Source: Mobula hypostoma (taxonomy: Eukaryota). Taken from it: a DNA stretch of 64,000 nt. Made by a program: the position numbers and the translations under genes. The DNA lies in the NCBI RefSeq assembly GCF_963921235.1, contig NC_086107.1, positions 116,128,001 to 116,192,000 of the forward strand. The letters run 5' to 3'. A model generated the notes under the pieces. The model saw only the letters and a program-made list of their open reading frames with translations. It was not told the DNA's origin and did not search any database. Position 1 is the stretch's first letter. Each line of letters starts with the position of its first letter. Positions 17,029 through 62,925 of this stretch are shown one piece after another.

Positions 17029-17205
17029 TCAGAGCGTCTTGGTGCAACCCCTCCTTGTAGCATCCGGTGTTTGCGCCTGGGGCTGTGGGTCAGGGTGACA
17101 GTGAGGTGTGGAGTCCAACCCACTCTCTTGCTGCTGGCCGTCCATTTGTGCTCCCGCTCTGCTCCCTTGTTTCCCCTGGATGGGCAGTGTGTCCCTGCCC
17201 TCCGT
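17029..17205 (-). CDS. tex14: Putative terminal coding exon (TEGRDTLPIQ..RRGCTKTL*)
   Basis: tctcccttcttgttgcag acceptor, phase 0, open to TGA, with AATAAA about 100 nt further on. It is a unique-sequence island between two satellites. Confidence 0.5.
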   Translation of the reverse strand, partial: TEGRDTLPIQGKQGSRAGAQMDGQQQESGLDSTPHCHPDPQPQAQTPDATRRGCTKTL

Positions 17206-17599
17206 CTGCAACAAGAAGGGGAGACCCATCAGGGAGGTGGCTGCCTCCCTCCCCCCGGGATCCAAAGGGCACAGGTTTTTTAAGGTGAGAAGGGAGAAAG
17301 AAGCTTAATAGAGACCAAATGGGCAACATTCTCAGGCAGAGGGTGGCTCACTGGGAGCACCTGTTATGTGAGAAACGGAGGGTGGGTCCAGTGAAATATT
17401 CAGACAGACGGACAGAAACAACCCCTCTGATCCACACTGACCCAGTCCAGATCAGTCCCCTCAGCCTTCAGTTGGACGACATCCCACTGAACCTTCCCTC
17501 TGCATGTATCTCTCCCGGTGTTGTACAATCCACCAACCTCCAGCACTTACACTTCCCCGGAGCCTCATTCCAGTGATGGACCACCCTTACCTCTGCATG

Positions 17600-17815
17600 A
17601 AAAAGCTGCCCTCGAGTCTCCATTAAACTTCCTCCCTCTCACCGTGAACACCAGTGCCCTTTGGTTCTGGATTCCCCAAACTGTCCAGTCTCTCCTTGTA
17701 ACAAAAGGCCTCGGGTTCCGGGCAATCTTCTCTGCACCCTCCCAGCTTAAACACACACTTCCTGTAGCTGGGCGAGCAGAACTGCCCACAGCACTCAGAC
17801 TCCCGTCTCACCAAC
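17600..17815 (-). mobile_element. Degenerate CR1 RT fragment that runs directly into the 34-bp array
   Basis: LVRRESECCGQFCSPSYRKCVFKL resembles CR1 LVRPHLEYCVQFWSP.YRKDV.KL. Confidence 0.75.
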
Positions 17816-20800
17816 ACCCTGACAGCACCCAGACTCCCGTCTCACCAACACCCTGACAGCACCCAGACTCCCGTCTCACCAACACCCTGACAGCACTCAG
17901 ACTCCCGTCTCACCAACACCCTGACAGCACCCAGACTCCCGTCTCACCAACACCCTGACAGCACTCAGACTCCCGTCTCACCAACACCCTGACAGCACTC
18001 AGACTCCCGTCTCACCAACACCCTGACAGCACCCAGACTCCCGTCTCACCAACACCCTGACAGTACTCACACTCCCGTCTCACGAACACCCTGACAGCAC
18101 CCAGACTCCAGTCTCACCAACACCCTGACAGCACTCAGACTCCGGTCTCACCAACACCCTGACAGCACCCAGACTCCCGTCTCACCAACACCCTGACAGC
18201 ACTCAGACTCCAGTCTCACCAACACCCTGACAGCACACAGACTCCCGTCTCACCAACACCCTGACAGCACTCAGACTCCAGTCTCACCAACACCCTGACA
18301 GCACCCAGACTCCAGTCTCACCAACACCCTGACAGCACCCAGACTCCAGTCTCACCAACACCCTGACAGCACCCAGACTCCAGTCTCACCAACACCCTGA
18401 CAGCACCCAGACTCCCGTCTCACCAACACCCTGACAGCACTCAGACTCCCGTCTCACCAACACCCTGACAGCACTCAGACTCCAGTCTCACCAACACCCT
18501 GACAGCACCCAGACTCCAGTCTCACCAACACCCTGACAGCACCCAGACTCCAGTCTCACCAACACCCTGACAGCACTCAGGCTCCCGTCTCACCAACACC
18601 CTGACAGCACCCAGACTCCAGTCTCACCAACACCCTGACAGCACTCAGACTCCCGTCTCACCAACACCCTGACAGTACTCACACTCCCGTCTCACCAACA
18701 CCCTGACAGCACTCACACTCCCGTCTCACGAACACCCTGACAGCACCCAGACTCCAGTCTCACCAACACCCTGACAGCACCCAGACTCCAGTCTCACCAA
18801 CACCCTGACAGCACTCAGACTCCCGTCTCACCAACACCCTGACAGCACCCAGACTCCAGTCTCACCAACACCCTGACAGCACTCAGACTCCCGTCTCACC
18901 AACACCCTGACAGTACTCACACTCCCGTCTCACCAACACCCTGACAGCACTCAGACTCCCGTCTCACCAACACCCTGACAGCACCCAGACTCCCGTCTCA
19001 CCAACACCCTGACAGCACTCAGACTCCCGTCTCACCAACACCCTGACAGCACTCAGACTCTCGTCTCACCAACACACTGACAGCACTCAGACTCCCGTCT
19101 CACCAACACCCTGACAGCACTCAGACTCCAGTCTCACCAACACCCTGACAGCACTCAGACTCCGGTCTCACCAACACCCTGACAGCACTGAGACTCTCGT
19201 CACACCAACACCCTGACAGCACCCAGACTCCAGTCTCACCAACACCCTGACAGCACCCAGACTCCCGTCTCACCAACACCCTGACAGCACCCAGACTCCC
19301 GTCTCACCAACACCCTGACAGCACTCAGACTCCCGTCTCACCAACACCCTGACAGCACTCAGACTCCCGTCTCACCAACACCCTGACAGCACTCAGACTC
19401 CCGTCTCACCAAAACCCTGACAGCACTCAGACTCCCGTCTCACCAACACCCTGACAGCACTCAGACTCCCGTCTCACCAACACCCTGACAGCACCCAGAC
19501 TCCCGTCTCACCAACACCCTGACAGCACCCAGACTCCAGTCTCACCAACACCGTCACAGCACTCAGACTCCCGTCTCACCAACACCCTGACAGCACCCAG
19601 ACTCCCGTCTCACCAACACCCTGACAGCACCCAGACTCCCGTCTCACCAACACCCTGACAGCACTCAGACTCCAGTCTCACCAACACCGTCACAGCACTC
19701 AGACTCCCGTCTCACCAACACCCTGACAGCACTCAGACTCCCGTCTCACCAACACCCTGACAGCACCCAGACTCCAGTCTCACCAACACCCTGACAGCAC
19801 TCAGACTCCCGTGTCACCAACACCGTCACAGCACCCAGACTCCAGTCTCACCAACACCCTGACAGCACTCGGACTCCCGTCTCACCAACACCCTGACAGC
19901 ACCCAGACTCCAGTCTCACCAACACCCTGACAGCACTCGGACTCCCGTCTCACCAACACCCTGACAGCACTCAGACTCCCGTCTCACCAACACCGTCACA
20001 GCACCCAGACTCCAGTCTCACCAACACCCTGACAGCACTCAGACTCCAGTCTCACCAACACCCTGACAGCACTCAGACTCCAGTCTCACCAACACCCTGA
20101 CAGCACCCAGACTCCAGTCTCACCAACACCCTGACAGCACTCAGACTCCCGTCTCACCAACACCCTGACAGCACTCAGACTCCCGTCTCACCAACACCCT
20201 GACAGCACCCAGACTCCAGTCTCACCAACACCCTGACAGCACCCAGACTCCCGTCTCACCAACACCCTGACAGCACCCAGACTCCAGTCTCACCAACACC
20301 CTGACAGCACCCAGACTCCCGTCTCACCAACACCCTGACAGCACTCAGACTCCCGTCTCACCAACACCCTGACAGCACCCAGACTCCCGTCTCACCAACA
20401 CCCTGACAGCACCCAGACTCCAGTCTCACCAACACCGTCACAGCACTCAGACTCCCGTCTCACCAACACCCTGACAGCACCCAGACTCCCGTCTCACCAA
20501 CACCCTGACAGCACCCAGACTCCCGTCTCACCAACACCCTGACAGCACTCAGACTCCCGTCTCACCAACACCGTCACAGCACTCAGACTCCCGTCTCACC
20601 AACACCCTGACAGCACTCAGACTCCCGTCTCACCAACACCCTGACAGCACCCAGACTCCAGTCTCACCAACACCCTGACAGCACTCAGACTCCCGTCTCA
20701 CCAACACCGTCACAGCACTCAGACTCCAGTCTCACCAACACCCTGACAGCACTCAGACTCCCGTCTCACCAACACCCTGACAGCACCCAGACTCCAGTCT

Positions 20801-23800
20801 CACCAACACCCTGACAGCACTCGGACTCCCGTCTCACCAACACCCTGACAGCACCCAGACTCCCGTCTCACCAACACCGTCACAGCACTCAGACTCCAGT
20901 CTCACCAACACCCTGACAGCACTCAGACTCCAGTCTCACCAACACCCTGACAGCACTCAGACTCCAGTCTCACCAACACCCTGACAGCACCCAGACTCCA
21001 GTCTCACCAACACCCTGACAGCACTCAGACTCCCGTCTCACCAACACCCTGACAGCACTCAGACTCCCGTCTCACCAACACCCTGACAGCACCCAGACTC
21101 CAGTCTCACCAACACCCTGACAGCACCCAGACTCCCGTCTCACCAACACCCTGACAGCACCCAGACTCCAGTCTCACCAACACCCTGACAGCACCCAGAC
21201 TCCAGTCTCACCAACACCCTGACAGCACCCAGACTCCAGTCTCACCAACACCCTGACAGCACCCAGACTCCCGTCTCACCAACACCCTGACAGCACTCAG
21301 ACTCCCATCTCACCAACACCCTGACAGCACCCAGACTGCCATCTCACCAACACCCTGACAGCACCCAGACTCCGGTCTCACCAACACCCTGACAGAACTC
21401 GGACTCCAGTCTCACCAACACCGTCACAGCACTCAGACTCTTGTCTCACCAACATCCTGACAGCACTCAGACTCCCGTCTCACCAACACCCTGACAGCAC
21501 TGAGACTCCCGTCTCACCAACACCCTGACAGAACTCAGACTCTGGTCTCACCAACACCGTCACAGCACTCAGACTCCCGTCTCACCAACACCGTCACAGC
21601 ACTCAAACTCCCATCTCACCAACACCCTGACAGCACTCAGACTCTCGTCTCACCAACACCGTCACAGCACCCAGACTCCGGTCTCACCAACACCCTGACA
21701 GCACTCAGACTCCAGTCTCACCAACACCCTGACAGCACTCAGACTCCGGTCTCACCAACACCCTGACAGCACTCAGACTCCCGTCTCACCAACACCCTGA
21801 CAGCACCCAGACTCCGGTCTCACCAACACCCTGACAGCACCCAGACTCCCGTCTCACCAACACCCTGACAGCACTCAGACTCTCGTCTCACCAACACCGT
21901 CACAGCACTCAGACTCCGGTCTCACCAACACCCTGACAGCACTGAGACTCCTGTCTCACCAACACCCTGACAGCACCCAGACTCCGGTCTCACCAACACC
22001 CTGACAGCACCCAGACTCCGGTCTCACCAACACCCTGACAGCACTCAGACTCCCGTCTCACCAACACCCTGACAGCACTCAGACTCCGGTCTCACCAACA
22101 CCGTCACAGCACTCAGACTCCGGTCTCACCAACACCCTGACAGCACTCAGACTCCCGTCTCACCAACACCCTGACAGCACCCAGACTCCAGTCTCACCAA
22201 CACCCTGACAGCACTCAGACTCCGGTCTCACCAACACCCTGACAGCACTGAGACTCCAGTCTCACCAACACCCTGACAGCACCCAGACTCCAGTCTCACC
22301 AACACCCTGACAGCACCCAGACTCCAGTCTCACCAACACCGTCACAGCACTCAAACTCCCGTCTCACCAACACCCTGACAGCACCCAGACTCCAGTCTCA
22401 CCAACACCCTGACAGCACTCAGACTCTCGTCTCACCAACACCCTGACAGCACCCAGACTCCCATCTCACCAACACCCTGACAGCACTCAGACTCCAGTCT
22501 CACCAACACCCTGACAGCACCCAGACTCCAGTCTCACCAACACCCTGACAGCACTCAGACTCCCATCTCACCAACACCCTGACAGCACTCAGACTCCGGT
22601 CTCACCAACACCCTGACAGCACTCAAACTCCCATCTCACCAACACCCTGACAGCACCCAGACTCCAGTCTCACCAACACCCTGACAGCACTCAGACTCCA
22701 GTCTCACCAACACCCTGACAGCACCCAGACTCCAGTCTCACCAACACCCTGACAGCACCCAGACTCCCGTCTCACCAACACCGTCACAGCACTCAAACTC
22801 CCGTCTCACCAACACCCTGACAGCACCCAGACTCCAGTCTCACCAACACCCTGACAGCACTCAGACTCCCGTCTCACCAACACCCTGACAGCACCCAGAC
22901 TCCCATCTCACCAACACCCTGACAGCACTCAGACTCCAGTCTCACCAACACCCTGACAGCACCCAGACTCCAGTCTCACCAACACCCTGACAGCACTCAG
23001 ACTCTCGTCTCACCAACACCCTGACAGCACCCAGACTCCCATCTCACCAACACCCTGACAGCACTCAGACTCCAGTCTCACCAACACCCTGACAGCACTC
23101 AGACTCCAGTCTCACCAACACCCTGACAGCACTCAGACTCCCGTCTCACCAACACCCTGACAGCACTCAGACTCCCGTCTCACCAACACCCTGACAGCAC
23201 TCAGACTCCAGTCTCACCAACACCCTGACAGCACTCAGACTCCCGTCTCACCAACACCCTGACAGCACTCAGACTCCAGTCTCACCAACACCCTGACAGC
23301 ACTCAGACTCCCGTCTCACCAACACCCTGACAGCACTCAGACTCCCGTCTCACCAACACCCTGACAGCACTCAGACTCCCGTCTCACCAACACCCTGACA
23401 GCACTCAGACTCCCGTCTCACCAACACCCTGACAGCACCCAGACTCCAGTCTCACCAACACCCTGACAGCACTCAGACTCCGGTCTCACCAACACCCTGA
23501 CAGCACTCAGACTCCAGTCTCACCAACACCCTGACAGCACTCAGACTCCCGTCTCACCAACACCCTGACAGCACTCAGACTCCCGTCTCACCAACACCCT
23601 GACAGCACTCAGACTCCCGTCTCACCAACACCCTGACAGCACTCAGACTCCAGTCTCACCAACACCCTGACAGCACTCAGACTCCCGTCTCACCAACACC
23701 CTGACAGCACTCAGACTCCAGTCTCACCAACACCCTGACAGCACTCAGACTCCAGTCTCACCAACACCCTGACAGCACTCAGACTCCAGTCTCACCAACA

Positions 23801-26800
23801 CCCTGACAGCACTCAGACTCCCGTCTCACCAACACCGTCACAGCACTCAGACTCCGGTCTCACCAACACCCTGACAGCACTCAAACTCCCATCTCACCAA
23901 CACCCTGACAGCACTCAGACTCCCGTCTCACCAACACCCTGACAGCACTCAGACTCCCGTCTCACCAACACCCTGACAGCACTCAGACTCCCGTCTCACC
24001 AACACCCTGACAGCACTCAGACTCCCGTCTCACCAACACCCTGACAGCACTCAGACTCCCGTCTCACCAACACCCTGACAGCACTCAGACTCCAGTCTCA
24101 CCAACACCCTGACAGCACTCAGACTCCAGTCTCACCAACACCCTGACAGCACTCAGACTCCCGTCTCACCAACACCCTGACAGCACTCAGACTCCGTTCT
24201 CACCAACACCCTGACAGCACTCAGACTCCCGTCTCACCAACACCCTGACAGCACTCAGACTCCCGTCTCACCAACACCCTGACAGCACCCAGACTCCAGT
24301 CTCACCAACACCCTGACAGCACTCAGACTCCCGTCTCACCAACACCCTGACAGCACTCAGACTCCAGTCTCACCAACACCCTGACAGCACTCAGACTCCC
24401 GTCTCACCAACACCCTGACAGCACTCAGACTCCCGTCTCACCAACACCCTGACAGCACTCAGACTCCCGTCTCACCAACACCCTGACAGCACTCAGACTC
24501 CCGTCTCACCAACACCCTGACAGCACTCAGACTCCCGTCTCACCAACACCCTGACAGCACCCAGACTCCAGTCTCACCAACACCCTGACAGCACTCAGAC
24601 TCCAGTCTCACCAACACCCTGACAGCACTCAGACTCCCGTCTCACCAACACCCTGACAGCACTCAGACTCCCGTCTCACCAACACCCTGACAGCACTCAG
24701 ACTCCGGTCTCACCAACACCCTGACAGCACTCAGACTCCCGTCTCACCAACACCCTGACAGCACTCAGACTCCCGTCTCACCAACACCCTGACAGCACTC
24801 AGACTCCCGTCTCACCAACACCCTGACAGCACTCAGACTCCAGTCTCACCAACACCCTGACAGCACTCAGACTCCCGTCTCACCAACACCCTGACAGCAC
24901 TCAGACTCCCGTCTCACCAACACCCTGACAGCACCAGACTCCAGTCTCACCAACACCCTGACAGCACTCAGACTCCCGTCTCACCAACACCCTGACAGCA
25001 CTCAGACTCCCGTCTCACCAACACCCTGACAGCACTCAGACTCTCGTCTCACCAACACCCTGACAGCACCCAGACTCCAGTCTCACCAACACCCTGACAG
25101 CACTCAGACTCCCGTCTCACCAACACCCTGACAGCACTCAGACTCCAGTCTCACCAACACCCTGACAGCACTCAGACTCCCGTCTCACCAACACCCTGAC
25201 AGCACTCAGACTCCGTCTCACCAACACCCTGACAGCACTCAGACTCCAGTCTCACCAACACCCTGACAGCACTCAGACTCCGTCTCACCAACACCCTGAC
25301 AGCACTCAGACTCCCGTCTCACCAACACCCTGACAGCACTCAGACTCCAGTCTCACCAACACCCTGACAGCACTCAGACTCCAGTCTCACCAACACCCTG
25401 ACAGCACTCAGACTCCCGTCTCACCAACACCCTGACAGCACCCAGACTCCCGTCTCACCAACACCCTGACAGCACTCAGACTCCAGTCTCACCAACACCC
25501 TGACAGCACTCAGACTCCCGTCTCACCAACACCCTGACAGCACTCAGACTCCGTCTCACCAACACCCTGACAGCACTCAGACTCCGTCTCACCAACACCC
25601 TGACAGCACTCAGACTCCGTCTCACCAACACCCTGACAGCACTCAGACTCCGTCTCACCAACACCCTGACAGCACTCAGACTCCCGTCTCACCAACACCC
25701 TGACAGCACTCAGACTCCCGTCTCACCAACACCCTGACAGCACTCAGACTCCGTCTCACCAACAGACTCCCTGACAGCACTCAGACTCCCGTCTCACCAA
25801 CACCCTGACAGCACTCAGACTCCCGTCTCACCAACACCCTGACAGCACTCAGACTCCGTCTCACCAACACCCTGACAGCACTCAGACTCCCGTCTCACCA
25901 ACACCCTGACAGCACTCAGACTCCCGTCTCACCAACACCCTGACAGCACTCAGACTCCCGTCTCACCAACACCCTGACAGCACTCAGACTCCGGTCTCAC
26001 CAACACCCTGACAGCACTCAGACTCCGGTCTCACCAACACCCTGACAGCACTCAGACTCCCGTCTCACCAACACCCTGACAGCACTCAGACTCCAGTCTC
26101 ACCAACACCCTGACAGCACTCAGACTCCAGTCTCACCAACACCCTGACAGCACTCAGACTCCCGTCTCACCAACACCCTGACAGCACTCAGACTCCAGTC
26201 TCACCAACACCCTGACAGCACTCAGACTCCCGTCTCACCAACACCCTGACAGCACTCAGACTCCCGTCTCACCAACACCCTGACAGCACTCAGACTCCAG
26301 TCTCACCAACACCCTGACAGCACTCAGACTCCCGTCTCACCAACACCCTGACAGCACTCAGACTCCCGTCTCACCAACACCCTGACAGCACTCAGACTCC
26401 CGTCTCACCAACACCCTGACAGCACTCAGACTCCCGTCTCACCAACACCCTGACAGCACTCAGACTCCCGTCTCACCAACACCCTGACAGCACTCAGACT
26501 CCCGTCTCACCAACACCCTGACAGCACTCAGACTCCCGTCTCACCAACACCCTGACAGCACTCAGACTCCCGTCTCACCAACACCCTGACAGCACTCAGA
26601 CTCCCGTCTCACCAACACCCTGACAGCACTCAGACTCCCGTCTCACCAACACCCTGACAGCACTGAGACTCCCGTCTCACCAACACCCTGACAGCACTCA
26701 GACTCCCGTCTCACCAACACCCTGACAGCACTCAGACTCCCGTCTCACCAACACCCTGACAGCACTCAGACTCCCGTCTCACCAACACCCTGACAGCACT

Positions 26801-28082
26801 CAGACTCCCGTCTCACACCAACACCCTGACAGCACTCAGACTCCGTCTCACCAACACCCTGACAGCACTCAGACTCCCGTCTCACCAACACCCTGACAGC
26901 ACTCAGACTCCGTCTCACCAACACCCTGACAGCACTCAGACTCCCGTCTCACCAACACCCTGACAGCACTCAGACTCCCGTCTCACCAACACCCTGACAG
27001 CACCCAGACTCCAGTCTCACCAACACCCTGACAGCACTCAGACTCCAGTCTCACCAACACCCTGACAGCACTCAGACTCCCGTCTCACCAACACACTGAC
27101 AGCACTCAGACTCCCGTCTCACCAACACCCTGACAGCACTCAGACTCCCGTCTCACCAACACCCTGACAGCACCCAGACTCCAGTCTCACCAACACCCTG
27201 ACAGCACTCAGACTCCCGTCTCACCAACACCCTGACAGCACTCAGACTCCAGTCTCACCAACACCCTGACAGCACTCAGACTCCAGTCTCACCAACACCC
27301 TGACAGCACTCAGACTCCCGTCTCACCAACACCCTGACAGCACTCAGACTCCCGTCTCACCAACACCCTGACAGCACTCAGACTCCCGTCTCACCAACAC
27401 CCTGACAGCACTCAGACTCCCGTCTCACCAACACCCTGACAGCACTCAGACTCCCGTCTCACCAACACCCTGACAGCACTCAGACTCCCGTCTCACCAAC
27501 ACCCTGACAGCACTCAGACTCCCGTCTCACCAACACCCTGACAGCACTCAGACTCCCGTCTCACCAACACCCTGACAGCACTCAGACTCCCGTCTCACCA
27601 ACACCCTGACAGCACTCAGACTCCCGTCTCACCAACACCCTGACAGCACTCAGACTCCCGTCTCACCAACACCCTGACAGCACTCAGACTCCAGTCTCAC
27701 CAACACCCTGACAGCACTCAGACTCCAGTCTCACCAACACCCTGACAGCACTCAGACTCCCGTCTCACCAACACCCTGACAGCACTCAGACTCCGGTCTC
27801 ACCAACACCCTGACAGCACTCAGACTCCCGTCTCACCAACACCCTGACAGCACTCAGACTCCCGTCTCACCAACACCCTGACAGCACTCAGACTCCCGTC
27901 TCACCAACACCCTGACAGCACTCAGACTCCCGTCTCACCAACACCCTGACAGCACTCAGACTCCGGTCTCACCAACACCCTGACAGCACTCAGACTCCCG
28001 TCTCACCAACACCCTGACAGCACTCAGACTCCCGTCTCACCAACACCCTGACAGCACTCGGACTTCCATCTCACCGACAGCA
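17789..28082. repeat. 34-bp minisatellite (CAGCACTCAGACTCCCGTCTCACCAACACCCTGA), about 10.3 kb
   Basis: About 300 tandem copies. Confidence 0.98.
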
Positions 28083-28199: not shown

Positions 28200-29190
28200 T
28201 GTTGCCAAAGGACACAGTGGGATAGAGATCAGTGACAGATACAGGTGGAGAAAAGGCCGATGTGGTGTTTAATCCGGGCAAGTGTGAGGGGTTGCACTTT
28301 GAGAGGTCAAAGGTAAAGGGACAGGACAGAGTTATCGGCAGGACCTTTAACAGTATTGATCTACCGAGGGATCCTGGGGTCCCTGTCTACAGCTCCCTGA
28401 AGGTGACGACACAGGCTGACAGGGTGGTAAGGGAGGCGAACAGCGTGTTTGGCTTTATCAGACGGGGCACTGAGTTCAAGAGTCAGGACGTTATGTTGCA
28501 GCTTCATAAACCTCTGGACCGGCTGCATCTGGGTATTACATTTAGTTCTGGGTGCCCCACGACAGGAAGCGTGTCGGGGCTTTGGAGAGGGTGTGGGGGA
28601 TTTGGAGAGGGTAGGGGGTTTTGGAGAGGGTGTGGGGGCTTTGGAGAGGGTGTGGGGGATTTGGAGAGGGTAGGGGGCTTTGGAGAGGGTGTGGGGGCTT
28701 TGGAGAGGGTAGGGGGCTTTGGAGAGGGTGTAGGGGCTTTGGAGAGGGTAGGGGGCTTTGGAGAGGGTGTGGGGGCTTTGGAGAGGGTGTGGGGGTTTGG
28801 AGAGGATGTAGAAGATGTTCACCAGGATGCTGCCTGGGTTTGAGGGCCAGAGCTGGAAGGAGAGGTGGGAGAAATTTGGGTTGTTTTTCTCTGGAGTGGT
28901 GGAGACGAGGGGAGATGTGATCAAGATTTATAAGATCATGAGGGGTAAAGACAGAGCAGACAGGGGGATAGCTGGTATCTTCATCCCCAGAGTGGAAATG
29001 TCAACAGCAGAGGGTTTGCATTTGAGGTGAGCGGGGAACAGTTCAGAGGAGATGTGTACTGCAGATTGTTTTCACATGCAGTGCTCGGAATGTGCTGTCA
29101 GGGGTGGGGATGGAGGCAGATTCCATAGAGGCTGTTAGACAGACACATGAACGTTCAGGGAGTGGAGGGAGATGGACATAGTGTAGGCAG
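28200..29190 (+). mobile_element. Degenerate CR1 LINE 3' part with an internal tandem expansion
   Basis: FNPGKCEGLHF, FIRRGTEFKSQDVMLQL, FTRMLPG, RGDVIKIYKIM. Confidence 0.85.
28576..28812. repeat. 19-20-bp G-rich tandem repeat (GGGGGCTTTGGAGAGGGTGT)
   Basis: About 12 copies inside the CR1 fragment. Confidence 0.93.
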
Positions 29191-29677
29191 AAATTAGTAG
29201 TTTACCTTGTCAACAGAGAGAGAGAGCTGGACAGTGTCCCTCATCTGCCACCCAGCTCCCCATCCCTTTACAGACAGCCATGGGGAGGGGGGGGGTCACC
29301 ACAACTCCCACCAATTCTGTTCCCCCTCCCACTCCCAGCACAGACAGCCGGGGTCAGCTGTCCTTCACTCTGAGTCCACCACCCACACAGAGACCTAGGG
29401 TGAGCTGGAGCTCCCTTGCTCAAAATGGCAGCCAAGGGTCCTGTCTCAGGGGAGGGGTGAGTTTGGGCAGACATAAAGAACGAGCCACAGTGGTGGGAGG
29501 GGAGCCAGAATGATCGAGTGGAACAGAGGGGGAGAGAGCAAGGGAGCGAGGCAAACAGGGAGGGAGAGAATGAGTTTCAGGCAGGGAAGGAGGTGGGAAG
29601 GGAGGGGATGGGAGAGGGAGGGCATGATGGAGGGAGGCAGGGGGCGGGGGGTAGAGTCAGAGCCGCAGGCTGAGTAC

Positions 29678-29759
29678 CTGAATCAGGCTTCGTTCTGAGG
29701 TCCCGGCCGTGGTGGGCTGCTGCTTGAGTTCATCAATCATTTCCTGCATCAGGTCGAAG
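29678..29759 (-). CDS. tex14: Putative exon O (FDLMQEMIDELKQQPTTAGTSERSLIQ)
   Basis: ctgttcccccacag acceptor, CAG|gtactc donor, 82 nt, phase 2->0, which fits exon N. Confidence 0.72.
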
Positions 29760-30935: not shown

Positions 30936-31033
30936 CCTGGCTGCCAACGATCACTGGAGGGTGAGGACGCAGTGCAGTGGCGGAGATTCCAGCGTTCCAG
31001 CAGGGCCAAGGCGCTCAAAGCCAAAGGGGTCGT
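30936..31033 (-). CDS. tex14: Putative exon N (TTPLALSALALLERWNLRHCTASSPSSDRWQP)
   Basis: Very strong sites (tttcccattgcag, GG|gtgagt), 98 nt. Only phase 0->2 is open. Confidence 0.68.
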
Positions 31034-31331: not shown

Positions 31332-31474
31332 CTGGGTGGTTTCTTTCTGGGAACTGCTCTGAGACTCGCCATCTCCTGTTGCCACCAGCGCCCCATCCTC
31401 AGGAATGCTCGACAAACCATCTGTATTGTCTGCACTTGGTTGAGATTCCACAGAGCTTGTTCTCTCATGAGTTC
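31332..31474 (-). CDS. tex14: Putative exon M (GTHERTSSVESQ..SQKETTQ)
   Basis: CAG|gtactg donor. Several phase-1 acceptors exist; the most upstream was chosen. Bridges phase 1->0. Confidence 0.5.
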
Positions 31475-38023: not shown

Positions 38024-38243
38024 CTGTGCGGGGTTGGATATGATGTTCGTCCTCCCAGTGCTGCCTGGAGACCTGCTCCAGCGCCTGGATCCCACTGAGG
38101 AACCGCTGCTCGAGACGCTCAAGGGATGAGTTGAAACAACCGAGCAGACCAGCCGACTCGCGGATGCTGCTCGCACAGCTGAGGAGCCTGATGTCCCGCA
38201 GGTGGATGGGTACAGGGTGAGGTGAGTCTTGACTGATGGGAGG
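38024..38243 (-). CDS. tex14: Putative exon L (IRLLSCASSIRESAGLLGCFNSSLERLEQRFLSGIQALEQ; helical/coiled-coil-like)
   Basis: G|gtaatg donor and an amphipathic-looking peptide. The acceptor position (gtcccgcag) is uncertain. Confidence 0.6.
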
Positions 38244-38406: not shown

Positions 38407-38649
38407 CTGCTGTGCGTATCCTGGAGGCGGGGATTGCTCAGGATGCGCTGTCTCCGTCTCTGACGGGGATGGAGAGCTCTCGCTATCCGGGAGGAGGGGC
38501 AGGCTGCCGTCGGTGTCTGGGTCCAGCTCCCGTCCCCAGCGCACACTGTACACCCTCATCCCAGACCACTGGCTCTGCGCAGGACGGGAGGGGCTGGGCC
38601 AGTGATCCAGATGCAGGTGGCCACGGCTGGCAGTGTCCTCCAAATGGAA
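38407..38649 (-). CDS. tex14: Putative exon K (FHLEDTASRG..QSPPPGYAQQ)
   Basis: C-rich tract plus cag acceptor, CAG|gtgagg donor, 243 nt. Only the phase-0 frame is open. Confidence 0.62.
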
Positions 38650-39317: not shown

Positions 39318-39463
39318 CTTTAGCAATCCCTCCTCCCGCACTGTGCTTCCTCGCCCCTTCAGTGGGTGGCCTGGCTCTCCACCCTCGGCTCCCAGTCCCC
39401 GGTCGTAGGGGCGGCTCTTGGTCTGGCCGCTGGTGTCTCGCTCCACCTCGTAATGGGACAGGC
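39318..39463 (-). CDS. tex14: Putative exon J (GLSHYEVERDTSGQ..EEGLLK)
   Basis: tccctccctccag acceptor, AAG|gtgagc donor, 146 nt, phase 1->0, which fits the chain. Confidence 0.6.
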
Positions 39464-42776: not shown

Positions 42777-42948
42777 CTGGGGAAAGGAGCTGTTAGGAGC
42801 GGTGGGGAGGAGAGGGGCGCGAGAGGGGGAGGATAGAGGTTGGGGCAAGAGAGAAGGAGGGGTGGGGGAAGAGGGGAAGGATGGACTGGGCCGGAGCTAT
42901 GGACCTGCCCCACTCACCTCCCTCGCTTTGCGCCCTCCAAGATCTCAC

Positions 42949-43053
42949 CGGTTCCCATTCTGCTCCATCCTGGGCTTCCAGCTTCCCCCAAGCGTCCCGG
43001 CAGTCCCACCGCTCGCCCTGGCCTTTCTGAGCTTCAGGAGAGGGTCTTCCTTC
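42949..43053 (-). CDS. tex14: Putative exon H (post-kinase); alternative donor at 42918
   Basis: Strong acceptor cttccctcctctgccag, phase 0. Two candidate donors: CCG|gtgaga (phase 0) and GAG|gtgagt (phase 1). Confidence 0.6.
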
Positions 43054-43140: not shown

Positions 43141-43331
43141 CTGGAGTTCCCGGTGCAGAATATGGTGCACATCCCGGAGGGTGAGGGTCCGGTGTCGGGG
43201 CTTTGGCAAGGTGCCCAGACTCAGGGCAAAGCGGAGGGATGGGGAGAGGCGGGGGTCCAGGGAGAGGGAGCGACCGCTGGACATCATCTGCCTCACCGTC
43301 TCACCTCCCGCCCCGGCCCAGGGAACCACGC
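43141..43331 (-). CDS. tex14: TEX14-like exon G (VPWAGAGGETVRQMMSSGRSLSLDPRL..RTLTLRDVHHILHRELQ; end of kinase domain)
   Basis: ttttgcag acceptor, CAG|gtagga donor, 191 nt, phase 1->0. Resembles TEX14 IPW.G..G..V...V.SG..L..D.RL...RT..L.DI..IL. Confidence 0.9.
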
Positions 43332-43975: not shown

Positions 43976-44136
43976 CTGTGAACACCTCCTGGGTCAGGGC
44001 ACAGAAGCTGTAGAGGTCAGAGCGCTCGGAACCCACCAGGCCGCTGATGATCTCGGGGGGCAGCCAGTTGTAGAGCTGGTGCGGTGCGGGGGGTGCCGTG
44101 GCACACCGGCTCCCGTCCCCATGTTCGTCCTCAGCC
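43976..44136 (-). CDS. tex14: TEX14-like exon F (QLYNWLPPEII..SERSDLYSFCALTQEVFT)
   Basis: ccccgcag acceptor, G|gtgggg donor, 161 nt, phase 2->1. Matches TEX14 QLYNWAAPEVI..SDIYSF..QEILT. This frame is absent from the ORF track. Confidence 0.92.
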
Positions 44137-45130: not shown

Positions 45131-45136
45131 TTGTAA

Positions 45137-52051: not shown

Positions 52052-52230
52052 CTTTCCTGCAGATACTCGAGGTTGCCCAGCTTGGCCTGGCCCAGTCCCA
52101 CCAGCTGCACGGCATGGGAGGTGAGAGATCGGTGAAGGTATCCTCGGGAGTGCAGGAAGAGCAAAGCTTCACATACCTGGGAGAGGAGGGGGATGGCCTC
52201 CCGCACAGCCAGCCCATCCGTCGCCGCCCA
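52052..52230 (-). CDS. tex14: TEX14-like exon E (catalytic-loop region: [24 protein letters not shown])
   Basis: tgtacag acceptor, AG|gtacga donor, 179 nt, phase 0->2. HRS replaces HRD and NLE replaces DFG, as in the TEX14 pseudokinase. Confidence 0.93.
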
Positions 52231-52840: not shown

Positions 52841-55208
52841 GTCAAGTCACTTTTTATTGTCATTTCGACCATAACTGCTGGTGCAGTACACAGTAAAAAT
52901 GAGACAACGTTTTTCAGGACCATGGTGCTACATGAAACAACACAAAACTACACTAGACTACAGACCTACCCAGGACTGCATAAAGTGCACAAAACAGTGC
53001 AGGTATTACAATAAAAAATAAACAAGACAGTAGGCACAGTAGAGGGCAGTAGGTTGGTGTCAGTCCAGGCTCTGGGTATTGAGGAGTCTGATGGTCTGGG
53101 GGAAGAAACTGTTGCACAGTCTGGTCGTGAGAGCCCGAATGCTTCGGTGCCTTTTGCCAGATGGCAGGAGGGAGAAGAGTTTGTATGAGGGGTGTGTGGG
53201 GTCCTTCATAATGCTGTTTGCTTTACGGGTGCAGCGTGTGATGTAAATGTCTGTGATGGCAGGAAGAGAGACCCCGATGATCTTCTCAGCTGACCTCACT
53301 ATCCGCTGCAGGGTCTTGCGATCCGAGATGGTGCAATTTCCGAACCAGGCCGTGATGCTGCTGCTCAGGATGCTCTCGATACAACCTCTGTAGAATGTGG
53401 TGAGGATGGGGGGTGGGAGATGGACTTTTCTCAGCCTTCGCAGAAAGTAGAGACGCTGCTGGGCTTTCTTTGCTATGGAGCTGGTGTTGAGGGACCAGGT
53501 GAGATTCTTCGCCAGGTGAACACCAAGAACTTTGGTCTCTTAACGATCTGTATGGAGGAGTCGTCGATGTTCAGCGGAGAGTGGTCGCTCCGTGTCTTCC
53601 TGAAGTCAACAACCATCTCTTTTGTTTTGTTCACATTCAGAGACAGGTTGTTGGCTCTGCACCGGTCCGTTAGCCGCAGCACCTCCTCTCTGTATGCTGA
53701 CTCATCTTTCTTGCTGATGAGACCCACCACGGTCGTGTCATCGGCGAACTTGATGATGTGGTTCGAGCTGTGTGTTGCAGCACAGTCGTGGGTCAGCAGA
53801 GTGAACAGCAGCGGACTGAGCACACAGCCCTGGGGGGCCCCCGTGCTCAGTGTGAGGGTGTTGGAGATGCTGCTCCTGATCCGGACTGACTGAGGTCTCC
53901 CAGTCAGGAAGTCTAGGATCCAGTTGCAGAGGGAGGTGTTCAGGCCCAGTAGGCTCAGCTTTCCAATCAGTTTCTGAGGAATGATTGTGTTGAATGCTGA
54001 ACTGAAGTCTATGAACAGCATTCAAACATACATGTCTTTTTTGTCCAGGTGGGTTAGGGCCAGATGGAGGGTGATGGCAATGGCGTCCTCTGTTGAACGG
54101 TTGGGACGGTACACAAACTGCAGGGGGTCCAGTGAGGGGGGGGCAGCAGAGTCTTGATGTGCCTCATGACGAGCCTCTCAAAACATTTCATGATGATGAA
54201 TGTGAGTGCAACGGGATGGTAGTCGCTGAGGCAGGACACTGAAGACTTCTTCAGCATGGGGACGATGGTGGCAGCCTTGAAGCACATTGGAATGACAGCG
54301 CTGCTCACGGCGATGTTGAAGGTGCCAGTGAGAACATCTGCCAGCTGGTCTGCACATCCTCTGAGCACTCTGCCAGGAATATTGTCTGGTCCAGCAGCCT
54401 TCCGTGGGTTGACCCTGCACAGGGTTCTCCTCACATTGGCCACGGTAAGACACAGCACCTGGTCATTTGGAGGAGGGGTGGTCTTCCTTGCTGCCACGTC
54501 ATTTTCCACTTCAAACCGAGTGTAGAAATCGTTCAACACATCTGGGAGGGAGGCATCACCAGCACAGGCAGGTGATGTTGTCTTGTAGTTGGTGATGTCC
54601 TGAATGCCCTTCCACATGCGCCACATGTCTCCGCTGTCCTGGAAGTGGCTGTGGATCCGCTGGGCGTGTGCATGCTTTGCCTCTTTGACGGCCCGGGAGA
54701 GTTTGGCCCTCGCTGTTGTTAGGGCTGCCTTGTCACCTGCTCTGAAGGCAGAGTCACGGGTCCTCAGCACCTCCGCGGTCATCCATGGCTTCTGGTTAGC
54801 GCGTGTAGTGATGGTCTTAGCCACAGTGACATCATCGATGCACTTGCTGATGTAGCTAGTCACTGATGTCGTGTACTCCTCTAAGCTGGTGGAGTTGCCA
54901 TCGGTTGCAGCCTCCCTGAACATGTGCCCGTCAGTCTGCTCAAAGCAGTCTTGCAGATCAGAGATGGCTCCTGCTGGCCAGGTTTTCACCTGCTTCTGAA
55001 CTGGTCTGGAGCGTCTGACGAGCGGTCTGTATGCTGGGATTAGCATAACAGAGATGTGGTCCGAGTAGCCGAGCTGGGGGTGGGGCTCCACCTGGTACGC
55101 GTCAGGGATGTTTACGTAAATAAGGTCCAATGCATTCTCCCCTTTTGTTGCATAGTCCACATACTAATGGAACTTGGGGAGCACTGACTTAAAGTTTACG
55201 TGGTTAAC
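52841..55208 (-). mobile_element. Rex1/Babar-type LINE, 5'-truncated within the APE domain, frameshifted RT, (TGACT) tail
   Basis: [64 protein letters not shown]. Confidence 0.93.
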
Positions 55209-56722
55209 ATGAGGTTCACATGAGTCATCTGTTGTCGGCCCCCAACCAACTCATATTCCACTCTCCCCTCCTACCCCTCCTCACAGTCCCCCACCCTGCT
55301 CTCATGACTATGCCCCTTCCCCACATGAAACCACCACGGGGAGCTTCACAGCTGAACAGGTGAGAAGACAGCTGAAACGTCTCAACCCAAGTAAGGCTGC
55401 AGGACCGGATGGTGTCAGTACCAGGGTGCTCAAAGCCTGTGCCCCTCAGCTATGTGGAGTACTTCGCCATGTATTCAACCTGAGCCTGAGGCTCCGGAGG
55501 GTTCCTGTGCTGTGGAAGACGTCCTGCCTCGTCCCTGTGCCGAAGACGCCGCGCCCCAGCGGCCTCAATGACTACAGACCGGTGGCATTGACCTCCCACA
55601 TCATGAAGACCCTGGAGAGACTTGTTCTGGAGCTGCTCCGGCCTATGGTCAGGCCACACTTAGATCCCCTCCAGTTCGCCTACCAGCCCCGACTAGGAGT
55701 TGAGGATGCCATCGTCTACCTGCTGAACCGTGTCTACGCCCACCTGGACAAGCCAGCGAGCGCTGTGAGGGTCATGTTTTTTGACTTCTCCAGTGCATTC
55801 AACACCATCCGCCCTGCTCTGCTGGGGGAGAAGCTGACAGCGATGCAGGTGGATGCTTTCCTGGTATCATGGATTCTTGATTACCTGACTGGCAGACCAC
55901 AGTACCTGTGTTTGCAATACTATGTGTCCGACAGAGTGATCAGCAGCACTGGGGCTCCACAGGGGACTGTCTTGTCTCCCTTTCTCTTCACCATTTACAC
56001 CTGGACTTCAACTACTGCACAGAGTCTTGTCATCTTCAGACGTTTTCTGATGACTCTGCCATAGTTGGATGCATCAGCAAGGGAGATGAGGCTGAGTACA
56101 GGGCTATGGTAGGAAACTTTGTCACATGGTGTGAGCAGAATTATCTGCAGTTTAATGTGAAAAAGACTAAGGAGCTGGTGGTAGACCTGAGGAGAGCTAA
56201 GGTACCGGTGACCCCTGTTTCCATCCAGGAGGTCAGTGTGGACATGGTGGAGGATTACAAATACCTGGGGATACGAATTGACAATAAACTGGACTGGTCA
56301 AAGAACACTGAGGCTGTCTACAAGAAGGGTCAGAGCCGTCTCTATTTCCTGAGGAGACTGAGATCCTTTAACATCTGCCGGACGATGCTGAGGATGTTCT
56401 ACGAGTTTGTGGTGGCCAGTGCGATCATGTTTGCTGTTGTGTGCTGGGGCAGCAGGCTGAGGGTAGCAGCCACCAACAGAATCAACAAACTCATTCGTAA
56501 GGCCAGTGATGTTGTGGGGATGGAACTGGACTCTCTCACGGTGGTATCTGAAAAGAGGATGCTGTCTAAGTTGCATGCCATCTTGGACAATGTCTCCCAT
56601 CCACTACATAATGTACTGGGTGGGCACAGGAGTACATTCAGCCAGAGACTCATTCCACCAAGATGCAGCACAGAGCGTCATAGGAAGTCATTCCTGCCTG
56701 TGGCCATCAAACTTTACAACTC

Positions 56723-57226
56723 AAACAACAGGAATTCTGCAGATGCTGGAAATTCAAGCAACATACATCAAAGTTGCTGGTGAACGCAGCAGGCCAAGCA
56801 GCATCTATAGGAAGAGGCGCAGTCGACGTTTCAGGCCGAGACCCTTCGTCAGGACTAACTGAAGGAAGAGTGAGTAAGGGATTTGAAAGCTGGAGGGGGA
56901 GGGGGAGATGCAAAATGATAGGAGAAGACAGGAGGGGGAGGGATAGAGCCGAGAGCTGGACAGGTGATAGGCAAAAGGGGATACGAGAGGATCATGGGAC
57001 AGGAGGTCCGGGAAGAAAGACAGGGGGGGGGGGTGGTTGACCCAGAGGATGGGCAAGAGGTATATTCAGAGGGACAGAGGGAGAAAAAGGAGAGTGAAAG
57101 AATGTGTGCATAAAAATGAGTAACAGATGGGGTACGAGGGGGAGGTGGGGCATTAGCGGAAGTTAGAGAAGTCGATGTTCATGCCATCAGGTTGGAGGCT
57201 ATCCAGACGGAATATAAGGTGTTGAA
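56723..57226 (-). mobile_element. Penelope-like insertion flanked by a 14-bp direct repeat AAACTTTACAACTC
   Basis: Direct repeat at 56709-56722 and 57227-57240. The host LINE resumes seamlessly after it. Carries a hammerhead motif. Confidence 0.75.
56821..56856 (-). ncRNA. Minimal type I hammerhead ribozyme motif
   Basis: The minus strand reads AGUC-CUGACGA-AGGGUCUCGGCCU-GAAAC-GUC-GACU: stem I AGUC/GACU, conserved core, short stem II, palindromic ACGU stem III and a GUC cleavage triplet. Confidence 0.75.
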
Positions 57227-58272: not shown

Positions 58273-58396
58273 CTGCTGATGAAGGACGGTGTGGAGGGAA
58301 CCCAGCCCCACTCGCTGGTACACCAGCCGCACCTGGGTCAAACTCTCTGACAGACATACCGCCATCAGCAGCAGGAGGTTGGGGTGACGTAGGTGG
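58273..58396 (-). CDS. tex14: TEX14-like exon D ([41 protein letters not shown])
   Basis: gttttccag acceptor, CAG|gtgggt donor, 124 nt, phase 2->0. [13 protein letters not shown]...RLVY...G.L..VLH is the TEX14 kinase signature. Confidence 0.93.
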
Positions 58397-61207: not shown

Positions 61208-61338
61208 TTGCACATGCGGGTGAGGGGCCCATTGGGGTAGCTGGTATCAGGCTCACTGTCTGTGTGGTGCAGGTCCCTGTCGCCCAGAACTGGCACCGAT
61301 CCCAACAACCCGACACCTCGACTACCACACTGGCACAG
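61208..61338 (-). CDS. tex14: TEX14-like exon B (LCQCGSRGVGLLGSVPVLGDRDLHHTDSEPDTSYPNGPLTRMCN)
   Basis: Polypyrimidine tract plus tag acceptor, AA|gtgggt donor, 131 nt, phase 0->2. Resembles TEX14 LGSLPVIGEKEV..DDEP..GPY..MTN. Confidence 0.88.
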
Positions 61339-61519
61339 CTACAGACCGGGGAGGGAGGGGGAGAGAAACAGACAGATCGAAACATGTTCCAGAATCACAC
61401 TGCGGACAGGGTCCCGCGGATGTGGAGAACACCGAGAGAGTGTGAGGGAAGTCCCAGGGTGGCAGGACCCTGTGAGGAGTCCGCAGGGCAGGGTGGCAGT
61501 GTGCAGGGAGGAGGGGAAG

Positions 61520-62856
61520 TTCCCCGGGTGTGTGGGACCCCACAGGGGTGATCCTGCAGAGTGTGAGATCCCACGGGGGTGATCCCCGGGAGTGTGGGAT
61601 CTCACAGGGGTGATCCTGCAGAGTGTGGGATCTCATGGGGGTGATCCCCGGGAGTGTGGGACCCCACAGGGGTGATCCTGCAGAGTGTGAGATCCCACGG
61701 GGGTGATCCCCGGGAGTGTGGGATCTCACAGGGGTGATCCTGCAGAGTGTGAGATCTCACGGGGGTGATCCCCAGGAGTGTAGGACCCCACAGGGGTGAT
61801 CCTGCAGAGTGTGAGATCTCACGGGGGTGATCCCCAGGAGTGTAGGACCCCACAGGGGTGATCCTGCGGAGTGTGAGATCCCACGGGGGTGATCCCCGGG
61901 AGTGTGGGATCTCACGGGGGTGATCCTGCAGAGTGTGGGATCCCACGGGGGTGATCCTGCGGATTGTGGGATCCCACGGGGGTGATCCCTGGGAGTGTGA
62001 GATCCCACGGGGGTGATCCCTGGGAGAGTGGGATCTCACGGGGGTGATCCTGCAGAGTGTGGGATCCCACGGGGGTGATCCCCGGGAGAGTGGGATCTCA
62101 CGGGGGTGATCCTGCGGAGTGTGGGATCCCACGGGGGTGATCCCTGGGAGTGTGAGATCCCACGGGGGTGATATCTGGGAGAGTGGGATCTCACGGGGGT
62201 GATCCCCAGGAGTGTAGGACCCCACAGGGGTGATCCTGCAGAGTGTGAGATCCCACGGGGGTGATCCCCGGGAGTGTGGGATCTCACGGGGGTGATCCTG
62301 CAGAGTGTGGGATCCCACGGGGGTGATCCTGCGGATTGTGGGATCCCACGGGGGTGATCCCTGGGAGTGTGAGATCCCACGGGGGTGATCCCTGGGAGAG
62401 TGGGATCTCACGGGGGTGATCCTGCAGAGTGTGGGATCCCACGGGGGTGATCCCCGGGAGAGTGGGATCTCACGGGGGTGATCCTGCGGAGTGTGGGATC
62501 CCACGGGGGTGATCCCTGGGAGTGTGAGATCCCACGGGGGTGATATCTGGGAGAGTGGGATCTCACGGGGGTGATCCTCAGGAGTGTGGGATCTCACGGG
62601 GGTGATCCTGCAGAGTATGGGATCCCACGGGGGTGATCCCCGGGAGAGTGGGATCCCACGGGGGTGATCCCCGGGAGTGTGAGATCCCACGGGGGTGATC
62701 CTGCAGAGTGTGGGATCTCACGGGGGTGATCCCTGGGAGAGTGGGATCCCACAGGGGTGATCCTGCAGTGTGGGATCCCACGGGGGTGATCCTGCAGAGT
62801 GTGGGATCCCCATGGGGGTTGTTCCCTGGGATGGTTTGGAGATCATGGGGATCCAC
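61520..62856. repeat. 31-bp minisatellite (GGGGGTGATCCTGCAGAGTGTGGGATCCCAC) with a 279-bp higher-order duplication
   Basis: About 43 copies filling intron A-B. Confidence 0.95.
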
Positions 62857-62867
62857 AACACACTTAC

Positions 62868-62925
62868 CTTCCCAAAGCCGAAGCTGTGTGTCCCACCCAA
62901 ACTGCCGACGTCAGACCGGGATGTC
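62868..62925 (-). CDS. tex14: TEX14-like exon A (pre-kinase, TSRSDVGSLGGTHSFGFGK)
   Basis: ttcctcttcag acceptor, AAG|gtaagt donor, 58 nt. The SFGFGK motif matches the segment preceding the TEX14 kinase domain as I recall it. Confidence 0.85.

What the first reader, a model, noticed from the sequence alone, without database searches (positions are those of the whole stretch)
17029..62925. Hidden TEX14-like pseudokinase gene with a short tail and no GPPX3Y motif: possible divergent paralog
Seen: 16 phase-consistent GT-AG exons encode about 760 aa, of which about 320 are TEX14-type kinase region and about 440 are a low-complexity tail. Known: mammalian TEX14 stabilises germ-cell intercellular bridges by binding CEP55 through a GPPX3Y motif in a much longer tail. 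My exon chain has no GPP tripeptide at all. Inference: this is either a second TEX14 paralog that does not block abscission through CEP55, or a lineage-specific rewiring.
Basis: partly seen in the sequence, partly recalled or inferred. Interest (0 to 1): 0.7.

Follow-up and report, generated by a model that had tools for sequence, protein, structure and literature searches.

The report
Second TEX14 gene lacking CEP55 motif
This devil-ray gene is a real, ancient second copy of the germ-cell bridge gene TEX14, kept from sharks to rats and cattle but apparently unstudied, and it has lost the short motif that TEX14 uses to stop cells from separating.

Summary
The gene is real but neither hidden nor whole in the window. 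Fifteen GT-AG exons (minus strand, 62925-17029) give 736 of 736 residues of RefSeq 'TEX14-like' XP_062919497.1 (Mobula hypostoma, 923 aa); its ankyrin repeats lie beyond the window. Spliced contigs join the tail exons directly, so no motif-bearing exon was missed where TEX14 has one. The same species has a separate canonical TEX14. Trees split the family into two jawed-vertebrate clades; a cartilaginous-fish-only duplication is rejected (AU p=2e-11). The short clade (here TEX14B) includes sharks, coelacanth, lungfish, amphibians, turtles, lizards and mammals (Mus spicilegus Arhgap33os, next to PRODH2). 0 of 118 TEX14B models carry a [GA]PP-x2-3-Y motif against 127 of 137 canonical models. One correction: the ray's canonical TEX14 also lacks strict GPPX3Y and has APP-x2-Y, so 'no GPP' alone proves nothing. 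A structure model supports a TEX14-TEX14B pseudokinase dimer (0.86, best control 0.01), possibly by likeness to RAF dimers. Function and tissue are not shown. No paper on the paralog in 10 searches; from recall, kinome entry SgK424 may be its human remnant. The scan noted this gene's 5' end in the adjoining window, not on other DNA.

The parts
62868..62925 (-). First exon inside the window (aa 188-206, linker between ankyrin repeats and pseudokinase); upstream exons for aa 1-187 lie beyond the window end
61208..61338 (-). Exon, aa 207-250, start of pseudokinase N-lobe; no glycine-rich loop
60119..60241 (-). Exon, aa 250-291; beta3 (Arg in place of the catalytic Lys) and helix alphaC
58273..58396 (-). 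Exon, aa 291-332; alphaC-beta4 loop, centre of the predicted dimer interface (R294, H295, P296, L300-V304)
52052..52230 (-). Exon, aa 333-392; degenerate catalytic loop (HRS for HRD) and NLE for DFG
43976..44136 (-). Exon, aa 392-446; activation segment to helix F
43141..43331 (-). Exon, aa 446-509; end of pseudokinase C-lobe
42918..43053 (-). Tail exon, aa 510-555
39318..39463 (-). Tail exon, aa 555-603
   Evidence: loose ends in 4 of 4 runs match its end
38407..38649 (-). Tail exon, aa 604-684; RVYSVR motif shared with sharks, lungfish and lamprey; a ray-only PPGY
38024..38243 (-). Tail exon, aa 685-758; conserved long helix (aa 700-751); alternative acceptor 48 nt downstream, in frame
31332..31474 (-). 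Tail exon, aa 758-805; joined directly to the helix exon, where canonical TEX14 has its CEP55 motif
   Evidence: loose ends in 3 of 4 runs
30936..31033 (-). Tail exon, aa 806-838
29678..29759 (-). Tail exon, aa 838-865; clade-specific C-terminal helix DLMQEMIDEL
17029..17205 (-). Last coding exon, aa 866-923 and stop
16922..16927 (-). AATAAA polyadenylation signal about 100 nt after the stop codon
   Evidence: use of this site is inferred

Best explanation
The window holds the 3' 15 coding exons of TEX14B, an intact, spliced, ancient paralog of TEX14 in a devil ray. It arose before cartilaginous and bony vertebrates split (shown by trees; whole-genome duplication is inferred) and lost the far tail with the CEP55-binding PP..Y motif (shown by sequence; loss is derived, because lamprey and canonical TEX14 both have the motif). 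It is catalytically dead by sequence and most likely works as an ankyrin-pseudokinase scaffold. My preferred mechanism, inferred and not shown (about 0.35): in germ cells it pairs with TEX14, or itself, through a side-to-side pseudokinase interface. It thereby enters TEX14 assemblies as a subunit that cannot hold CEP55 and brings other partners through two conserved tail helices. It would tune the bridge and not itself block abscission. The confidence given is for the identity (ancient paralog, dead kinase, motif lost), not for the partner model.
For: Gene model 736/736 to P0001, 14/14 introns GT-AG. Spliced contigs in 4 of 4 runs laid, 3 studies. Second, canonical TEX14 in the same species on another contig, 41% identical over the ankyrin-kinase core. 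Six species sit in both clades of the 37-row tree. All-chondrichthyan clade rejected, p-AU 1.8e-11. A 99/97 and B 98/96 with invertebrate outgroup and lamprey left out. Motif in 0 of 118 B, 127 of 137 A, 4 of 4 lamprey models. C-terminal helix motif in 67 of 118 B, 0 of 137 A. HRD, DFG and G-loop missing. Dimer model 0.86, best of 3 controls 0.01; the mark was reached by 51 of 78 solved and 2 of 108 mismatched microbial pairs (eukaryotes: 39 of 65 and 2 of 126); runs share at least 42% of contacts, partner pLDDT at least 75. Full-length mouse TEX14 self-interacts in two-hybrid tests (PMC3045441, passages).
Against: With lamprey included, B has only 71/93 support and the lamprey's place is unresolved. 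No synteny could be tested (no genome). Tissue is unknown: the runs carry no library record, so germ-cell expression is assumed. The dimer pass may come from likeness to solved RAF-type dimers, close cousins usually pass too (10 of 12), and no homodimer control was run. Interface columns are barely more conserved than the rest (0.64 vs 0.58). The central loop residue is Arg in 96 of 137 A but His in 91 of 118 B models; in RAF the like change weakens dimers (recalled). Splicing was checked only for four tail exons.
Confidence: 0.88

Rival explanations
1. Same identity, other function: TEX14B works apart from TEX14 and from germ-cell bridges (monomer or homodimer scaffold in another structure or tissue), using its C-terminal helix to bind a partner of its own.
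For: Clade-specific C-terminal helix kept from rays to rodents. His at the dimer loop in 91 of 118 B models. Mouse TEX14 knockouts lose male bridges (PMC9669650, passages), so no backup is evident. B not seen in the listed hits for ray-finned fishes, frogs, birds or apes, which make sperm normally.
Against: The heterodimer model passes with a pseudo-symmetric interface. The ray protein keeps Arg at the loop position. The ankyrin-kinase core stays about 40% identical to TEX14.
Confidence: 0.45
2. The ray gene and the tetrapod/mammal short gene are two different duplicates (separate ohnologs), not one orthogroup.
For: B support 71/93 when lamprey is included. Neighbours differ: PRODH2/ARHGAP33 in mammals (names) versus GDPD3 in the ray (unchecked scan note e1-7813873).
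Against: B 98/96 without lamprey; trees joining either half of B to A are disfavoured (p-AU 0.044 and 0.043, borderline); the C-terminal helix motif is shared by both halves and absent from A, lamprey and invertebrates.
Confidence: 0.12
3. TEX14B still binds CEP55, through a non-canonical proline-tyrosine motif.
For: The ray tail has SPPPGY (aa 676-681); 23 of 118 B models have SPP-x3-Y just after the kinase. Canonical TEX14 tolerates x2 spacing and Ala for Gly, so the motif is looser than published.
Against: Neither lies at the homologous place. The ray motif was seen in the three myliobatiform ray models and not in the shark, lungfish, amphibian or reptile models listed. The mammalian one overlaps another conserved motif.
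Confidence: 0.07
4. Gene-model artefact: a missed exon carries the motif.
For: Half of the gene span is tandem repeat (22.7 of 45.9 kb); only four tail exons were tested with reads; rare isoforms drop out of contigs.
Against: No GPPX3Y or [AG]PP-x2-Y in six frames of the window; helix exon joined directly to the next exon in 3 of 4 runs; 0 of 118 clade members have the motif.
Confidence: 0.03
5. Ordinary 1:1 TEX14 ortholog with a rewired tail, or a duplicate private to cartilaginous fishes.
For: RefSeq names the Mobula birostris and Hemitrygon copies plain 'tex14'/'TEX14'.
Against: Canonical TEX14 exists in the same species and groups with skate, shark, coelacanth and mammals at 99/99; p-AU 1.8e-11 against a chondrichthyan clade.
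Confidence: 0.02

Closest known systems
TEX14 (SgK307), germ-cell intercellular-bridge pseudokinase
   Same: Ankyrin repeats plus dead kinase domain (Pfam); same degenerate catalytic motifs; a long helix at the same place in the tail; about 40% identity over the core.
   Different: Separate clade; tail 413 aa against a median of 938; no PP..Y CEP55 motif; no ERAHSTLD motif (0 of 118 vs 96 of 137); own C-terminal helix; beta3 Lys mostly Arg.
Mammalian 'TEX14-like' models at the ARHGAP33-PRODH2 locus (Mus spicilegus Arhgap33os; cattle 'gene model 1082-like')
   Same: Same clade in the tree, short tail, same C-terminal helix, no motif.
   Different: Mammalian copies are faster evolving, about 660-730 aa, and mostly lack the long tail helix; only database annotations, no functional paper found.
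SgK424, second member of kinome family NKF5 (recalled from the 2002 human kinome catalogue; no call confirms it)
   Same: Recalled as the only TEX14 relative in that catalogue, so it may be the human remnant of this clade.
   Different: Not verified: 0 papers hold the name and it is absent from the supplements searched.
Lamprey TEX14 (P0162)
   Same: Shares the RxYxVxRG motif, the LERRF helix and beta3 Arg with the window's gene.
   Different: Long tail with DEVD and APP-x2-Y as in canonical TEX14; lacks the C-terminal helix motif; may be the pre-duplication form or an early B.
KSR-RAF side-to-side pseudokinase/kinase dimers; ILK as an ankyrin-pseudokinase scaffold
   Same: Predicted interface centred on the alphaC-beta4 loop, which I recall as the RAF interface; side-to-side RAF and KSR dimers are described in PMC8141879 (passages). 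ILK is the top, non-significant PDB hit for that exon (E 0.19).
   Different: Both partners here are dead kinases; resemblance only, not membership.

Membership tests
TEX14 family (both paralogs) | N-terminal ankyrin repeats followed by a kinase-fold domain | tested here: met
   Pfam Ank_2 aa 24-113 and PK_Tyr_Ser-Thr aa 281-493 on P0001; model confident over both. The ankyrin part lies outside the window.
TEX14 family (both paralogs) | Pseudokinase: G-loop, HRD Asp and DFG Asp missing | tested here: met
   HRS, NLE, beta3 Arg, no G-loop; by sequence only
TEX14 family (both paralogs) | Groups with vertebrate TEX14 against invertebrate relatives | tested here: met
   100/99
Canonical TEX14 orthologs | Falls in the clade of mammalian TEX14 | tested here: not met
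   Clade A 99/99 excludes it and holds another gene of the same species
Canonical TEX14 orthologs | CEP55-binding AxGPPx3YxPP motif or its x2 variant after the tail helix | tested here: not met
   direct exon join in reads
Canonical TEX14 orthologs | Long tail with ERAHSTLD motif | tested here: not met
   413 aa; motif in 0 of 118 B models
Canonical TEX14 orthologs | Germ-cell expression, localisation to intercellular bridges, CEP55 or MKLP1 binding | not testable with these tools
   Runs have no tissue record
Short TEX14-like clade (TEX14B) | Monophyly with sarcopterygian and mammalian short TEX14-like proteins | tested here: met
   98/96 without lamprey; 71/93 with it, so met with a caveat
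Short TEX14-like clade (TEX14B) | C-terminal DL[LM]QE[IM]IxEL helix | tested here: met
   aa 840-850; 67 of 118 B, 0 of 137 A
Whole-genome-duplication ohnolog pair | Paralogous gene neighbourhoods (GDPD1 near TEX14, GDPD3 near the copy) | not testable with these tools
   No genome held; GDPD3 from an unchecked scan note, GDPD1 recalled
SgK424 / NKF5 | Identity with the catalogued human SgK424 sequence or locus | tested here: inconclusive
   Name not found; no human protein among 120 listed of 199 hits

The most novel reading that the evidence does not exclude
Jawed vertebrates split an ancestral, lamprey-like TEX14 into two genes: TEX14 kept the CEP55-blocking motif, TEX14B kept other tail motifs. 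The two assemble through a RAF-like pseudokinase dimer, so TEX14B is an unrecognised subunit that sets how stable or open germ-cell bridges are. It is still coding in rat, cattle and lemurs, filed as the antisense gene Arhgap33os in mice, and decayed in monkeys and apes.
Probability: 0.25. Interest if true: 0.8.

Novelty: new variant of a known kind. Interest (0 to 1): 0.55.

Why it matters
TEX14 is treated as a single vertebrate gene that keeps germ cells joined by holding CEP55. A conserved second gene with the same folded core and no CEP55 motif is a natural experiment that separates blocking abscission from whatever else the ankyrin-pseudokinase core does; a review notes that blocking abscission alone does not build a bridge (PMC9669650). 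It can be tested in rat or cattle. It also warns that 'TEX14' labels in databases mix two genes, and that the published GPPX3Y spacing does not hold across vertebrates. It is not a new kind of system, and databases already carry the models.

Tried and rejected
Whole-genome search for synteny or a second copy: no genome held. A 16th exon at 29395-29440 broke the frame; no in-frame candidate with good splice signals stood out in 28800-29676. No run is on record as RNA ('no RNA holder listed'); contig depths (8 to 545) were not used as expression levels. Fold search gave only generic tyrosine-kinase-like folds; the PDB sequence search gave ankyrin proteins among the best 60 of 278. The first tree's careful mixture-model search did not finish, so one search is the quick tree. 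P0143 was dropped from the 86-row tree for short coverage, and multi-stretch ankyrin-only hits were left out. Synonymous versus non-synonymous differences in two runs (6:4 and 3:1) are too few to use. The ray's PPGY (WW-binding type, recalled) was not taken as functional because it is not conserved beyond rays. Searches for SgK424, NKF5, SgK307 and pseudogene lists did not confirm the recalled link. The structural paper on TEX14-CEP55 was not held. Scan look-ups by words and by the mammalian protein gave nothing more.
Full report
VERDICT. It is an ancient second TEX14 gene, here called TEX14B, already in databases as 'TEX14-like' but not described in any paper I could find. Its function is not shown.

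OBSERVATION. The window is rich in tandem repeats; ten arrays fill 22.7 of the gene's 45.9 kb. One exon read by eye (52054-52230, minus strand) found 7 longer proteins among 27 candidates, all named TEX14 or TEX14-like; the best, P0001, matched 100% and is RefSeq XP_062919497.1 of Mobula hypostoma, 923 aa. Fifteen exons from 62925 to 17029, with 14 of 14 GT-AG introns, translate to residues 188-923 of P0001 with no mismatch. Residues 1-187, the ankyrin repeats, have no match in the window, so the gene runs past the window's end. There is no GPP in the protein, and no GPPX3Y or [AG]PP-x2-Y in any frame of the window.

TRANSCRIPTS. Eleven runs were listed for 38010-38700, none on record as RNA; I laid 4 of them, from 3 studies and 3 coded organisms. 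All 4 gave contigs that cover only the two exons and skip the intron: 3 at the RefSeq acceptor, 1 at an acceptor 48 nt further on, in frame, as in the Mobula birostris model. Loose ends match the end of the exon at 39318 in 4 of 4 runs and the start of the exon at 31474 in 3 of 4. The tail-helix exon is therefore joined straight to the next exon, at the place where canonical TEX14 carries its motif. Only these four exons were tested; contigs drop rare isoforms; tissue is unknown.

PARALOGY. A profile search gave 377 proteins at E<=1e-40, of which 120 were listed. They include a second M. hypostoma protein, P0024, on a different contig (61 Mb against 117 Mb), 41% identical over the core. On 37 ankyrin-kinase cores with four invertebrate outgroups (LG+G4), canonical TEX14 (A) is a clade at 99/99 holding P0024, skate, shark, gar, paddlefish, coelacanth, lungfish, amphibians, reptiles, a bird and mammals; the window's gene lies outside it, in clade B at 71/93. 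Six species are in both clades: M. hypostoma, Latimeria, Protopterus, Pelodiscus, Erythrolamprus and Eulemur. Holding all cartilaginous-fish sequences together costs 107.6 log-likelihood units, p-AU 1.8e-11. Without the long lamprey branch A is 99/97 and B 98/96; joining either half of B to A is disfavoured only narrowly, p about 0.04. The lamprey's place is open. An earlier tree without outgroup split A from B at SH-aLRT 100 (quick search).

RANGE OF B. The search of 50%-cluster representatives (150 listed), name look-ups and a search with five mammalian members (120 listed of 199) place B in rays, sharks, coelacanth, lungfish, caecilians, newt, turtles, lizards, snakes, marsupials, carnivores, ungulates, xenarthrans, bats, rodents and lemurs. 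[quoted passage not shown] Two New World monkey models look truncated or degenerate. No human, ape, Mus musculus, bird, crocodilian, frog or ray-finned-fish member appeared in the listed hits; the lists are cut, so this is weak evidence of loss.

THE MOTIF. Reviews give the TEX14 motif as AxGPPx3YxPP, binding CEP55 in competition with ALIX and TSG101 (PMC9669650 and PMC13216642, passages). Of 321 fetched proteins with a strong core match I scored those with a complete kinase end: 137 A, 118 B, 4 lamprey, 16 invertebrate (these are isoforms and 90% clusters, not species, and a few B models are PRODH2 fusions). Strict GPPX3Y: 101 of 137 A, 0 of 118 B. Relaxed [GA]PP-x2-3-Y: 127 A, 0 B, 4 of 4 lamprey, 0 of 16 invertebrate. 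The ray's own canonical TEX14 has APP-x2-Y; the two prolines and the tyrosine are invariant in a 22-row A alignment. The x2 form was seen in lamprey, rays, shark, coelacanth, paddlefish, gar, a characin, newt and a frog; x3 in lungfish, a caecilian and amniotes (18 proteins). So 'no GPP' does not mark the paralog; loss of the whole element does. Against a clean loss: the ray tail has SPPPGY, and 23 of 118 B models have SPP-x3-Y just after the kinase, both at other positions.

WHAT B KEPT. The kinase lacks the G-loop, HRD Asp and DFG Asp, as TEX14 does; beta3 has Arg in 96 of 118 B (22 unmatched by the pattern; the coelacanth fragment has Lys) and Lys in 130 of 137 A. AlphaFold2 (mean pLDDT 62.9, pTM 0.59) folds the ankyrin and kinase parts, a long helix at 700-751 and a short one at 841-850; the rest of the tail is below 50. 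The short helix motif is in 67 of 118 B and 0 of 137 A, 0 of 4 lamprey; ERAHSTLD is in 96 of 137 A and 0 B. The lamprey tail has B-type RxYxVxRG and LERRF elements together with A-type DEVD and APP-x2-Y, which fits a division of ancestral motifs between the two copies (inference).

MECHANISM. [quoted passage not shown] I folded the two ray ankyrin-kinase cores together (alignments were not used by the tool): score 0.86, best of 3 controls 0.01; the mark was reached by 51 of 78 solved and 2 of 108 mismatched microbial pairs, and by 39 of 65 and 2 of 126 eukaryotic pairs; runs share at least 42% of contacts; partner pLDDT at least 75. The interface is pseudo-symmetric around the alphaC-beta4 loop, which I recall as the RAF side-to-side surface (mode described in PMC8141879, passages). 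The pass may thus be from memory, and it cannot tell a heterodimer from homodimers. Interface columns are hardly more conserved than others (0.64 vs 0.58), and the central Arg of A (96 of 137) is His in most B (91 of 118) though Arg in this ray; the like change weakens RAF dimers (recalled). I put the model 'CEP55-blind subunit of TEX14 assemblies' at about 0.35 and a TEX14-independent scaffold role, of no specified mechanism, at about 0.45.

ORIGIN. A duplication before the jawed-vertebrate split, with a single lamprey gene in my hits, fits whole-genome duplication. An unchecked scan note puts the gene head-to-head with GDPD3 (e1-7813873); GDPD1 lies near human TEX14 (recalled). I could not test this.

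WHAT IS IN PRINT. Ten full-text searches showed no paper on a second TEX14 gene, judged from listings and abstracts. Arhgap33os, Gm1082 and LINC01529 gave 41 papers, many of them prefix matches to other Gm names; the one I opened lists the gene in a table (PMC5726758, passages). A 2026 review traces TEX14 only to vertebrates and names no paralog in the section read (PMC13216642, section 12). Passages only, nothing relevant: PMC9275260, PMC1845163, PMC7615534, PMC10216758, PMC13519141, PMC10132805. Supplements searched: PMC2572838 and PMC6930252 (also passages), which list SgK307/TEX14 and not SgK424. From recall only: the 2002 human kinome catalogue pairs SgK307 with SgK424 in family NKF5, and LINC01529 lies between human ARHGAP33 and PRODH2; if these are this locus, its human remnant was catalogued long ago. 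Subscription papers, bioRxiv supplements and other kinome or ohnolog tables were not seen and may hold it.

SCORES. Novelty: new variant of a known kind. Interest 0.55: annotated already and without functional evidence, but a conserved, motif-less twin of a key fertility gene, testable in rat and cattle, would surprise the field.

Noticed in passing
P0024, P0028, P0029, P0038, P0146, P0188, P0162 (not in the window): Canonical TEX14 of lamprey, cartilaginous fishes, coelacanth, gar, paddlefish, newt and a frog carries [AG]PP-x2-Y, one residue shorter than the published GPPX3Y; whether it binds CEP55 was not tested.
   Followed up: partly
P0253, P0185, P0203, P0213 (not in the window): Amphioxus and molluscs have ankyrin-pseudokinase proteins about 31-37% identical to the TEX14 core, without the motif (0 of 16), although a review traces TEX14 only to vertebrates.
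   Followed up: partly
P0339, P0413, P0353 (not in the window): Mus spicilegus, Mus caroli and rat have full or near-full coding models of the gene named Arhgap33os; no Mus musculus protein was among the cluster members listed, so the mouse gene may be coding but unannotated, or recently broken.
   Followed up: no
P0380, P0396 (not in the window): New World monkey models are truncated or degenerate while the lemur model is intact, suggesting decay in simians.
   Followed up: no
P0002, P0003 and several mammal records: Database names mix the two genes: some short-clade proteins are labelled plain tex14/TEX14, some 'hydroxyproline dehydrogenase' through read-through models.
   Followed up: partly
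window 9328-16870 and 31555-38002: The same 52-bp minisatellite forms two arrays (146 and 125 copies), one downstream of the gene and one inside an intron; a 34-bp unit fills 10.3 kb of the last intron (17788-28079).
   Followed up: no
window 52900-56800, 45900-46550, 41200-41850, 6600-7700: Broken LINE-type reverse-transcriptase pieces in introns and downstream, judged by eye from the sequence; two lie in opposite orientation at 52900-56800.
   Followed up: no
window 38195-38243: Alternative splice acceptor removing 16 residues just before the conserved helix, used by one run and by the Mobula birostris model.
   Followed up: partly
P0024: The ray's canonical TEX14 model is 1068 aa against about 1560-1600 in other batoids and ends before the C-terminal motifs, so it may be an incomplete model.
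   Followed up: no
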